Source: the human T2T-CHM13v2.0 reference genome, Homo sapiens. From it: a stretch of DNA of 64,000 nt. Below are positions 12,915 to 13,600 of the stretch, piece after piece. The translations under genes were made by a program, and so were the position numbers. Position 1 is the stretch's first letter, and every line of letters begins with the position of its first letter. The notes under the pieces were generated by a model. The model was not told the origin of the DNA and did not search any database. It saw nothing but the letters and a program-made list of their open reading frames with translations. The stretch is taken from the NCBI RefSeq assembly GCF_009914755.1, contig NC_060944.1. The stretch is one strand, 5' to 3'.

Positions 12915-13600
12915 CACTGTTACACATCCAGGTAGATGTGAATACATGCTGCAGTAATGTCTGTCACCCATAGTCACTGCAGGGGAAGTTGGCATCACAG
13001 CACTGACGATATGCCTACTATCTTTAGGTTAAAGTGGATACGTTATCATTACCCTATGCAAAAGAATCTGATCATTGCCCTGAAGATAATTTTGTTATCT
13101 CACATTGCATATGTGATCATTACCCTGAGGGCAGAGATGCAATCATTGGCCTATAGGAATACTTATCATTATGGCTTGGCAAGTGGAAAAGTGATAATTA
13201 ACTTGCACGAATAGATGGGATCATTGCACTACAGATAGATCTGTTATTGCATTTCCTGAAGAAATGCAATCTCTAGTGTGCAAAAGACAATGTGTTATCT
13301 ACATTTATGGTAGAGATATGCTCCTTATATTGCCCATAATGATGATATCAATTGCATTTCAGGTGGAAATTAGGATTGTTGCATTGCTGATAACCTTGTT
13401 ATAATTACGTTACAGAAAGAGATGCAATCATTCCCTTGCATATGGTCCGTATGAAGACGGGATCATTACAGGAAAGGTGAAGGAGATACAGTCATTATGC
13501 TCTATATACACCCATTTTTATGGCTAGCGGCTGAAGATGGGATGCTTTCTTTGCTGGAAGACCTATTACCTGTTAGGTTGCAAAAGATGTGATCATCTTC
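12915..13600. repeat. Degenerate tandem array, ~26-bp unit, approximate consensus GATGTGATCATTGCA(C/T)TGCAGGTAGA
   Basis: ATCATT-like core recurs at a modal spacing of 26 nt (e.g. 13045, 13071, 13097; 13116, 13142; 13194, 13220; 13269, 13295, 13321, 13347; 13375, 13401, 13427). Confidence 0.8.

What the first reader, a model, noticed from the sequence alone, without database searches (positions are those of the whole stretch)
12915..13600. Cryptic, heavily eroded 26-bp-period tandem array (~25 units)
Seen: an ATCATT-like core at about 12941, 12967, 12994, 13020, 13045, 13071, 13097, 13116, 13142, 13165, 13194, 13220, 13243, 13269, 13295, 13321, 13347, 13375, 13401, 13427, 13462, 13491 and 13592; most intervals are exactly 26 nt. 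Example units: GAATCTGATCATTGCCCTGAAGATAA, TATGTGATCATTACCCTGAGGGCAGA, GATGGGATCATTGCACTACAGATA, GATGCAATCATTCCCTTGCA. My by-eye consensus is GATGTGATCATTGCA(C/T)TGCAGGTAGA, containing the palindromes TGATCA and TGCA. Units are so divergent that default tandem-repeat finders may miss it, yet phase is kept and the core looks better conserved than the linker. 26 is not a multiple of 3, so it is not a coding repeat; it is ~2.5 helical turns, so successive cores would alternate faces of the helix. Inference: a fossil minisatellite, the subterminal array of an ancient transposon, or a constrained array of protein-binding sites or lncRNA repeat domain.
Basis: partly seen in the sequence, partly recalled or inferred. 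Interest (0 to 1): 0.8.

Follow-up and report, generated by a model that had tools for sequence, protein, structure and literature searches.

The report
Decayed 26-bp minisatellite with inverted arm
This is a real but very old, worn-down tandem repeat of 26-base units that also has a shorter mirror-image arm, appears once in the genome, and shows no sign of being kept by selection, although part of it now forms the start of the last exon of the islet lncRNA LINC01370.

Summary
The array is real. Lag-26 and lag-52 autocorrelation give z about 4.1-5.3, and 0-3 of 1000 dinucleotide shuffles reach that at any lag. Tandem Repeats Finder (TRF) misses it. A wrap-around profile alignment places 24 full units and one partial unit at 12975-13608 on the + strand.

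New here: a second arm of about 9 units lies in the opposite orientation at 14040-14273 (score 34.2; null maximum 24.1 in 180 windows). Between the arms sits a high-copy interspersed repeat at 13778-14042, which I recall as MaLR/MLT1-like.

The array and its right flank match only themselves in the whole assembly. The same search finds 545 candidates for the neighbouring repeat. Three pattern-seeded genome scans found no second array.

The better-conserved core is reproduced within about 1.2-2 SD by a neutral-decay simulation. Phase drifts by up to 12 nt. The 7 exonic units are no better kept than the 17 intronic ones.

Best reading: a locus-specific fossil minisatellite, partly inverted and decaying neutrally. 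It incidentally supplies the splice acceptor of LINC01370 exon 3. A transposon relic is not excluded, because no Dfam search or cross-species alignment was possible.

The parts
12975..13608 (+). Main arm of the decayed 26-bp tandem array: 24 full units and one partial unit. It may extend left to about 12929.
   Evidence: Wrap-around profile alignment scores 271.9. Autocorrelation is significant. The halves cross-validate each other. The signal is orientation-specific: 271.9 as given against 14.5 for the reverse complement. A left extension 12929-12974 is seen by eye only and is not significant.
14040..14273 (-). Inverted arm: about 9 eroded units of the same repeat, read on the minus strand.
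   Evidence: A profile trained only on the + arm scores 34.2 on the reverse complement, 10.8-11.9 as given, 9.2 reversed and 16.6 complemented. The null from 180 other windows and strands has mean 14.8, sd 2.5 and maximum 24.1. Model R1 gives minus-strand matches at 14031-14090 (9.3 bits) and 14214-14276 (7.7 bits). Local lag-26 match is 0.46 at 14035, above the window's 99.5th percentile of 0.442.
13778..14042 (+). High-copy interspersed repeat between the two arms. I recall it as a MaLR/MLT1-type LTR. It carries the poly(A) signal.
   Evidence: 545 first-look candidates in the assembly. Of 40 scored, 40 are significant (one is the self-match) at 69-87% identity, covering query 147-403. blastn against five of those loci gives homology at 13778-14058. 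AATAAA is at 14022-14027. The family name comes from memory, not from a tool.
13609..13777 (.). Unassigned stretch between the + arm and the recognisable part of the interspersed repeat. It could be a diverged 5' part of that repeat or an original spacer.
   Evidence: It matches only itself in the assembly. There is no array signal on either strand (16.4 and 9.8). No match to the flanks of five related repeat copies at a useful E-value.
13416..14042 (+). LINC01370 (HI-LNC25) exon 3. Its first 193 nt are 7 array units and the rest runs into the interspersed repeat.
   Evidence: Exon coordinates come from the hub's annotation. The acceptor AG at 13414-13415 lies in the AG columns of the unit starting at 13392. 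AATAAA at 14022-14027 is 15 nt before the annotated end. The alias HI-LNC25 comes from a table in PMC5642639.

Best explanation
This is a locus-specific, very old minisatellite with a 26-bp unit and an AT-rich ATCATT core. Replication slippage or unequal exchange expanded it to at least about 35 units, and part of it became inverted, so that two arms face each other. An interspersed repeat (MaLR/MLT1-like, by recall) then landed at or near the junction. Since then everything has decayed at about the neutral rate. It has no demonstrated function as an array. Its only visible present-day role is incidental. One unit's pyrimidine-rich stretch followed by AG serves as the 3' splice site of the last exon of LINC01370/HI-LNC25. 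The neighbouring repeat supplies the poly(A) signal, so 7 eroded units are carried in the mature RNA.

Shown: the periodicity, the extent, the inverted arm, uniqueness in the assembly at BLAST sensitivity, and the positions of the splice and poly(A) signals.

Inferred: origin by slippage, the inversion event, the order of events, and neutrality.
For: The periodicity is significant and cross-validated.

The array (12950-13620), the spacer (13605-13790) and the right flank including the inverted arm (14046-14800) each return only the self-match in the 3.1-Gb assembly. The same search returns 545 and 8902 first-look candidates for the two neighbouring interspersed repeats, at identities down to 69%. 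The search can therefore see old families.

Three pattern seeds taken from the best-kept units gave 7, 7 and 25 non-self places. None of them carries a comparable array by the wrap-around score.

Erosion is heavy and even. Units are on average 0.66 identical to the consensus and 0.52 pairwise, with no dependence on unit distance and no even/odd higher order (p 0.74).

A neutral simulation of 25 identical units, with AT-biased substitution, CpG decay and indels, run through the same pipeline reproduces the total score (177 +/- 79 against 202 observed). It also reproduces most of the column heterogeneity (core 0.80-0.82 +/- 0.04 against 0.88; core-minus-rest 0.19-0.23 +/- 0.07 against 0.31).

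Exonic units are no better kept: raw lag-26 match is 0.257 exonic against 0.369 intronic, and identity to consensus is 0.61 against 0.625.

Decayed tandem repeats that standard finders miss are a known class (passages of PMC11580682).
Against: No Dfam/RepeatMasker search and no cross-species alignment could be run. A match to a described ancient family, or conservation above neutral, would therefore not have been seen.

Pairwise BLAST and short exact or near-exact patterns would miss copies as eroded as this one.

Two facing arms made of tandem units is also the anatomy of foldback-type transposons.

The observed core conservation is on the high side of the simulation (about +1.2 to +2 SD). 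The simulation also dropped runs in which the pipeline failed (10 of 40 at k 0.45; 20 of 40 at k 0.55), which may bias the comparison.

One 32-nt place on contig 6 is 26 of 32 identical to 13071-13102. That is more than I expect by chance among 7 pattern hits.
Confidence: 0.6

Rival explanations
1. This is the relic of one copy of an ancient DNA transposon whose arms consisted of tandem 26-bp units. That could be a foldback-like or long-TIR Mutator-like element, or a deletion derivative of an element with subterminal repeat arrays. The + arm and the - arm would be its two ends facing inward. A later interspersed repeat was inserted in the middle, and all other copies are lost or eroded beyond pairwise detection. 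It might already be a low-copy Dfam family.
For: The two arms have opposite orientation and abut a central insertion, which is the layout of foldback elements. A review table lists Drosophila 'Tetris', whose inverted repeats gave tandem arrays (PMC9659126). There is one short look-alike on contig 6 (26 of 32 nt; 14.1 bits, E 0.0009 against 21 kb).
Against: No second array appeared at any of 39 seeded non-self places. BLAST returns only the self-match, although 69%-identical copies of the neighbouring repeat are found. No inverted similarity links the outer flanks 12500-12940 and 14260-14800 (score 13 against shuffles 12.8 +/- 1.5). The arms themselves align only weakly (15 against 11.4 +/- 1.4; maximum 17 in 200 shuffles). 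The arms are very unequal, 634 against 234 nt. The contig-6 place has no periodic flank.
Confidence: 0.2
2. This is a constrained array. The ATCATT-type cores would be reiterated binding sites for a DNA-binding protein in the gene desert near LINC01370. Alternatively, the exonic units would form a repeat domain of the lncRNA that recruits a protein, and selection would hold the cores while the linkers drift.
For: The core columns are descriptively the best kept (A 0.91, T 1.0, T 0.96, T 0.87) and sit at the upper end of the neutral simulation. Seven units lie in LINC01370 exon 3 (hub annotation). Depleting that lncRNA is reported to lower GLIS3 mRNA (passages of the review PMC4076741).
Against: The best-kept columns are almost all A/T, which decay slowest under the AT-biased mammalian mutation spectrum, and anchoring the alignment on them inflates them. 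The simulation reaches the observed core value (maximum 0.884-0.894). Only 8 exact cores survive in about 24 units. Spacing drifts by up to 12 nt. Exonic units are not better kept than intronic ones. The review table lists no mouse orthologue for HI-LNC25, whereas the erosion suggests the array is far older than the transcript. There is no Rfam match.
Confidence: 0.08
3. The periodicity is a chance feature of AT-rich sequence and there is no array.
For: TRF finds nothing. The raw lag-26 match is only 0.33 against a background of 0.28.
Against: 0-3 of 1000 dinucleotide shuffles reach the observed z at any lag. The halves predict each other at 2-5 times the best null score. All 15 plus-strand matrix hits of 14 bits or more in 64 kb fall inside 12985-13583.
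Confidence: 0.01

Closest known systems
Decayed (ancient) minisatellites, the class targeted by ULTRA and tantan
   Same: Head-to-tail units in the minisatellite range. Substitutions and indels have blurred the pattern so that TRF misses it. This is the situation described in PMC11580682 (passages).
   Different: It is unusually eroded for something still detectable (pairwise unit identity about 0.52 after gapped alignment). It also has a second arm in inverted orientation. Whether ULTRA's T2T annotation already labels it was not checked, because the supplementary tables were not opened.
Foldback-type DNA transposons (Drosophila FB, Tetris) and long-TIR Mutator-like elements
   Same: Two inverted arms built from short tandem repeats facing each other. 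The family features are recalled and taken from the review table in PMC9659126.
   Different: No other copies, no terminal sequence shared by the outer ends, no recognisable target-site duplication, and very unequal arms. I did not establish whether foldback elements are described in mammals. The one search made (listing only) showed none in its top 10 of 220.
Subterminal repeat arrays of hAT/CACTA/P-type transposons
   Same: A reiterated short core with less regular surroundings, in opposite orientation at the two ends (family features recalled).
   Different: Those motifs are usually irregularly spaced over 100-300 bp next to a terminal inverted repeat. Here the spacing was originally a strict 26 bp over more than 600 bp, and no terminal repeat is found.
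Repeat domains of lncRNAs (for example Xist repeat A; recalled)
   Same: Several copies of a short unit inside an exon of a lncRNA (7 units in LINC01370 exon 3).
   Different: The array extends far outside the exon, with 17 of 24 units intronic. The exonic units are the less regular ones. The array is probably much older than the transcript.
Repeat-derived lncRNA exons, where a repeat donates splice or poly(A) signals (recalled general knowledge)
   Same: The acceptor AG lies within an array unit, and the AATAAA lies within the interspersed repeat, 15 nt before the annotated 3' end.
   Different: The acceptor donor is a fossil tandem repeat rather than a transposon.

Membership tests
Tandem repeat / minisatellite | Head-to-tail units of one period, beyond chance | tested here: met
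   Lag 26 gives z 4.1-5.3, and 0-3 of 1000 dinucleotide shuffles reach it. There are 24 units in register. Cross-validation holds.
Tandem repeat / minisatellite | Higher-order (52-bp dimer) structure | tested here: not met
   The even-minus-odd unit-distance identity difference is -0.006, permutation p 0.74. The lag-52 peak is what a simple 26-bp array gives.
Interspersed repeat / transposon family | Several dispersed copies in the genome | tested here: not met
   BLAST of the array, spacer and right flank returns only the self-match, while the positive controls return 545 and 8902 candidates. No array was found at 39 pattern-seeded non-self places. Sensitivity to copies below about 69% identity is low.
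Foldback-like / TIR DNA transposon | Inverted arms | tested here: met
   The minus-strand arm 14040-14273 scores 34.2 against a null maximum of 24.1 (n 180), and the signal is orientation-specific.
Foldback-like / TIR DNA transposon | Matching outer termini and target-site duplication | tested here: inconclusive
   No inverted similarity of the outer flanks above shuffles (13 against 12.8 +/- 1.5). At this level of erosion short termini could no longer be recognised.
Described Dfam/Repbase family | Significant match to a curated family model | not testable with these tools
   No Dfam library or RepeatMasker is available. NCBI's masking as quoted by the hub lists nothing here but gives no family names. 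Rfam shows nothing above threshold.
Constrained binding-site array | Core conserved beyond neutral expectation | tested here: inconclusive
   Observed core 0.884 and core-minus-rest 0.314, against simulated 0.80-0.82 +/- 0.04 and 0.19-0.23 +/- 0.07, with maxima 0.894 and 0.407. The simulation model and parameters are my own choice.
Constrained binding-site array | Cross-species conservation or protein occupancy | not testable with these tools
   No vertebrate genomes other than this assembly and no ChIP/ATAC data were available.
lncRNA repeat domain | Units within the mature transcript and better kept there | tested here: not met
   7 of 24 units are exonic. Exonic lag-26 match is 0.257 against 0.369 intronic, and identity to consensus is 0.61 against 0.625.

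The most novel reading that the evidence does not exclude
The two facing arms are the last recognisable copy of a foldback-type DNA transposon with tandem-repeat arms that was active in an early mammalian or pre-mammalian genome. That would be a kind of element I could not find described for mammals. An LTR later split it, and one arm was recruited as the splice acceptor of the beta-cell lncRNA HI-LNC25.
Probability: 0.12. Interest if true: 0.5.

Novelty: new member of a known kind. Interest (0 to 1): 0.25.

Why it matters
Mostly as a calibration case. It shows that a tandem array worn down to roughly 50% pairwise identity can still be proved by autocorrelation and split-half profile tests when TRF sees nothing. 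It also shows that an apparently conserved core in such an array can arise from AT-biased decay plus alignment anchoring, without selection.

Locally, it explains where the 3' splice site of the last exon of LINC01370/HI-LNC25 comes from, and that about 30% of that exon is fossil repeat. This is useful when designing knock-downs or interpreting variants there. If the transposon reading were right, it would add an unusual ancient element type to the mammalian repertoire.

Tried and rejected
- TRF at its most permissive score found nothing.
- Alignment A1, made of overlapping 4-unit slices, was useless because MAFFT aligned the shared letters. A2 was ragged. A3, with six non-overlapping 3-unit rows, was used for model R1.
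- In one search most of the 25 non-self hits shared one common motif that I recall as the core of the MIR element. That is background, not relatives.
- L056 looked like a second array (score 53.9). It is a different, well-kept minisatellite with a period of about 27-31 and a CA-rich unit that happens to contain ATCATTAC.
- The contig-6 look-alike (L006) has no periodic flank.
- My by-eye split of units into two alternating subtypes was rejected by the permutation test.
- No extension of either arm into 12480-12974, 13609-13790 or 14274-14800.
- No terminal inverted repeats at the outer flanks.
- Rfam gave only two sub-threshold chance hits.
- The LINC01370 and HI-LNC25 literature (29 papers each; listings; passages of PMC4076741 and PMC5642639) showed nothing about this repeat in what I read. 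I did not read the other papers or any supplements.

Full report
**1. Is it there?**

The region reads as AT-rich unique-looking sequence, and TRF at minimum score 30 reports nothing in it. Autocorrelation nevertheless shows the two strongest lags to be 26 and 52. Only 3 of 1000 dinucleotide shuffles reach that z at any lag from 10 to 120.

For 12975-13608 and 13030-13450 the z values are 4.65 and 5.31, with 0 of 1000 shuffles as high. Lags 78 and 104 fade (z 2.3 and 1.9), as expected when indels shift the phase.

A position matrix grown from the 8 exact ATCATT sites finds 15 plus-strand hits of 14 bits or more in the whole 64 kb. All of them lie at 12985-13583. There is one hit on the minus strand, elsewhere.

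Because that matrix was fitted to the region, I split the array. A matrix from first-half units scores 55.3 on the second half, against a maximum of 24.9 in 89 other windows. The converse scores 114.1 against 22.9 in 95 windows. The array is real.

**2. Anatomy**

A wrap-around gapped alignment places 24 full units and one partial unit at 12975-13608. Intervals are exactly 26 in 10 of 23 cases and 25-27 in 16 of 23. Cumulative drift reaches -12 nt before returning to 0, so phase is not actively kept.

After gapped alignment, units are on average 0.66 identical to their consensus and 0.52 to each other. This is independent of distance along the array, and there is no even/odd structure (p 0.74). 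My by-eye impression of two alternating subtypes is therefore not supported.

The two leftmost (12941, 12967) lie in a stretch that looks unit-like by eye but is not significant alone.

**3. An inverted arm**

Model R1, built from six non-overlapping 3-unit rows, gave weak minus-strand matches clustered just downstream, at 14031-14090, 14103-14132 and 14214-14276. The local lag-26 match rises again to 0.46 at 14035, above the window's 99.5th percentile of 0.442.

The + arm profile, applied to the reverse complement of 14030-14700, aligns about 9 units at 14040-14273 with score 34.2. The same DNA as given scores 10.8-11.9, reversed 9.2, and complemented 16.6. The null from 180 other windows and strands has mean 14.8, sd 2.5 and maximum 24.1. 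Conversely, the + arm scores 271.9 as given and 14.5 as reverse complement.

The locus therefore holds two arms of the same repeat in opposite orientation. They measure 634 and 234 nt and face each other.

**4. What lies between and around**

Window 13640-14045 has 545 first-look candidates in the assembly. All 40 scored are significant (one is the self-match), at 69-87% identity, and they cover 13786-14042. blastn against five of them gives 13778-14058. By recall, this sequence is a MaLR/MLT1-type LTR in + orientation; no tool named it.

The 169 nt between the + arm and that homology (13609-13777) match nothing but themselves and carry no array signal. They may be the diverged 5' part of the repeat or an original spacer.

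To the left, about 12101-12486 is another high-copy repeat (8902 candidates, 79-83% identity). In the top matches, 12487-12960 is unique.

The minus arm starts where the interspersed repeat ends. The simplest order of events is therefore that the two-arm array came first and the repeat was inserted at or near the junction. This order is inferred.

**5. Is it a dispersed family?**

BLAST of the array (12950-13620), the spacer, and the right flank with the minus arm (14046-14800) returns only the self-match in 3.1 Gb. The two neighbouring repeats serve as positive controls and show that the same search recovers copies down to 69% identity.

The assembly cannot be searched with a profile, so I used three IUPAC seeds taken from the best-kept units:

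| Call | Places found | Own | Control |
|---|---|---|---|
| 22 | 9 | 2 | 1 |
| 25 | 10 | 2 | 0 |
| 42 (one mismatch allowed) | 28 | 3 | 8 |

I then scored 3 kb around every place with the wrap-around profile. The non-self loci scored at most 27.8 on either strand, which is the seeded match itself, with one exception. L056 scored 53.9 but is an unrelated, well-preserved minisatellite with a period of about 27-31.

One place on contig 6 is 26 of 32 identical to 13071-13102 (my count). It matches R1 at 14.1 bits but has no periodic flank. It may be chance or a tiny relic.

No inverted similarity joins the outer flanks. At this sensitivity the array is a single-locus feature. Copies as eroded as this one would, however, largely escape these searches.

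**6. Constraint?**

The best-kept columns are the A/T positions of the core (0.87-1.0) and one further T (0.96). G/C columns average about 0.58.

I simulated 25 identical units decaying under an AT-biased, CpG-sensitive substitution model with indels, and ran the identical seed-matrix-alignment pipeline. At rates that match the observed mean identity the results were:

| Measure | Observed | Simulated, k 0.45 | Simulated, k 0.55 | Simulated maxima |
|---|---|---|---|---|
| Best 6-column core | 0.884 | 0.80 +/- 0.04 | 0.82 +/- 0.04 | 0.884, 0.894 |
| Core minus rest | 0.314 | 0.19 +/- 0.07 | 0.23 +/- 0.07 | 0.339, 0.407 |
| Total score | 202 | 177 +/- 79 | 78 +/- 36 | 319, 193 |

At k 0.45, 30 of 40 runs completed; at k 0.55, 20 of 40 completed. 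Failed runs were dropped.

The observed excess is about 1.2-2 SD, so there is no clear evidence of selection on the core. The matching rate corresponds to roughly half a substitution per site if the units began identical. That places the array among the oldest recognisable repeats, though the estimate depends on the model.

Seven CG dinucleotides remain in the 634-nt + arm. Three of them (13041, 13208, 13458) fall in the six columns just before the core, where most other units read TG or CA, which suggests CpG decay (my reading of the printed rows).

**7. Relation to LINC01370**

The hub's annotation puts exon 3 at 13416-14042. The AG at 13414-13415 is the AG of the unit starting at 13392. 8 of 24 units keep AG in those columns. 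The only AATAAA in 13900-14100 is at 14022-14027, inside the interspersed repeat and 15 nt before the annotated end. The terminal exon therefore begins in the fossil array (193 nt, 7 units) and ends in the interspersed repeat.

LINC01370 is HI-LNC25 (table in PMC5642639). A review reports that it is islet-specific, that no mouse orthologue was identified, and that its depletion lowers GLIS3 mRNA (passages of PMC4076741). I did not read the primary paper.

The exonic units are not better preserved than the intronic ones: lag-26 match is 0.257 against 0.369, and identity to consensus is 0.61 against 0.625. This argues against an RNA-level repeat domain under constraint.

**8. Verdict**

This is a genuine, very old 26-bp minisatellite with a previously unnoticed inverted arm. 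It is unique in the assembly at the sensitivity available, it is decaying in a way compatible with neutrality, and it was incidentally exonised.

Decayed tandem repeats that TRF misses are a known class (PMC11580682, passages). Hence I rate it a new member of a known kind, of low to moderate interest.

The main open point is whether the two-arm layout is the wreck of a foldback-like transposon or of a described Dfam family. That needs Dfam/nhmmer and a multi-species alignment, neither of which was available here.

Noticed in passing
window 12101-12486: A high-copy interspersed repeat of about 380 bp: 8902 first-look candidates in the assembly, with the top 39 non-self matches at 79-83% identity. 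It is probably a younger LTR-type element. It was not named by any tool.
   Followed up: partly
window about 34987-35672: The 686-nt tile starting at 34987 shows a strong lag-28 autocorrelation (z 7.9). It overlaps a stretch that the hub lists as masked (34983-35294). It is likely an ordinary tandem repeat.
   Followed up: no
L056 1100-1565 (G000:C16 around 55776793): A well-preserved minisatellite with a period of about 27-31 and a CA-rich unit containing ATCATTAC. It was picked up only because it shares the short core and is unrelated to the array studied.
   Followed up: yes
L006 1501-1534 (G000:C6:121251064-121251095): An isolated 32-nt stretch, 26 of 32 identical to window 13071-13102, scoring 14.1 bits with model R1 and lacking periodic flanks. 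It could be chance or a two-unit relic.
   Followed up: partly
window 11107-11174: A 28-nt inverted repeat, 96% complementary, with 12 nt between the arms (pair I1). It lies in LINC01370 intron 1.
   Followed up: no
window 28050-28110 (-) and 47926-47961 (+): Isolated weak matches to the unit model R1 (13.2 and 12.1 bits) with no neighbouring matches. I take them as chance.
   Followed up: no
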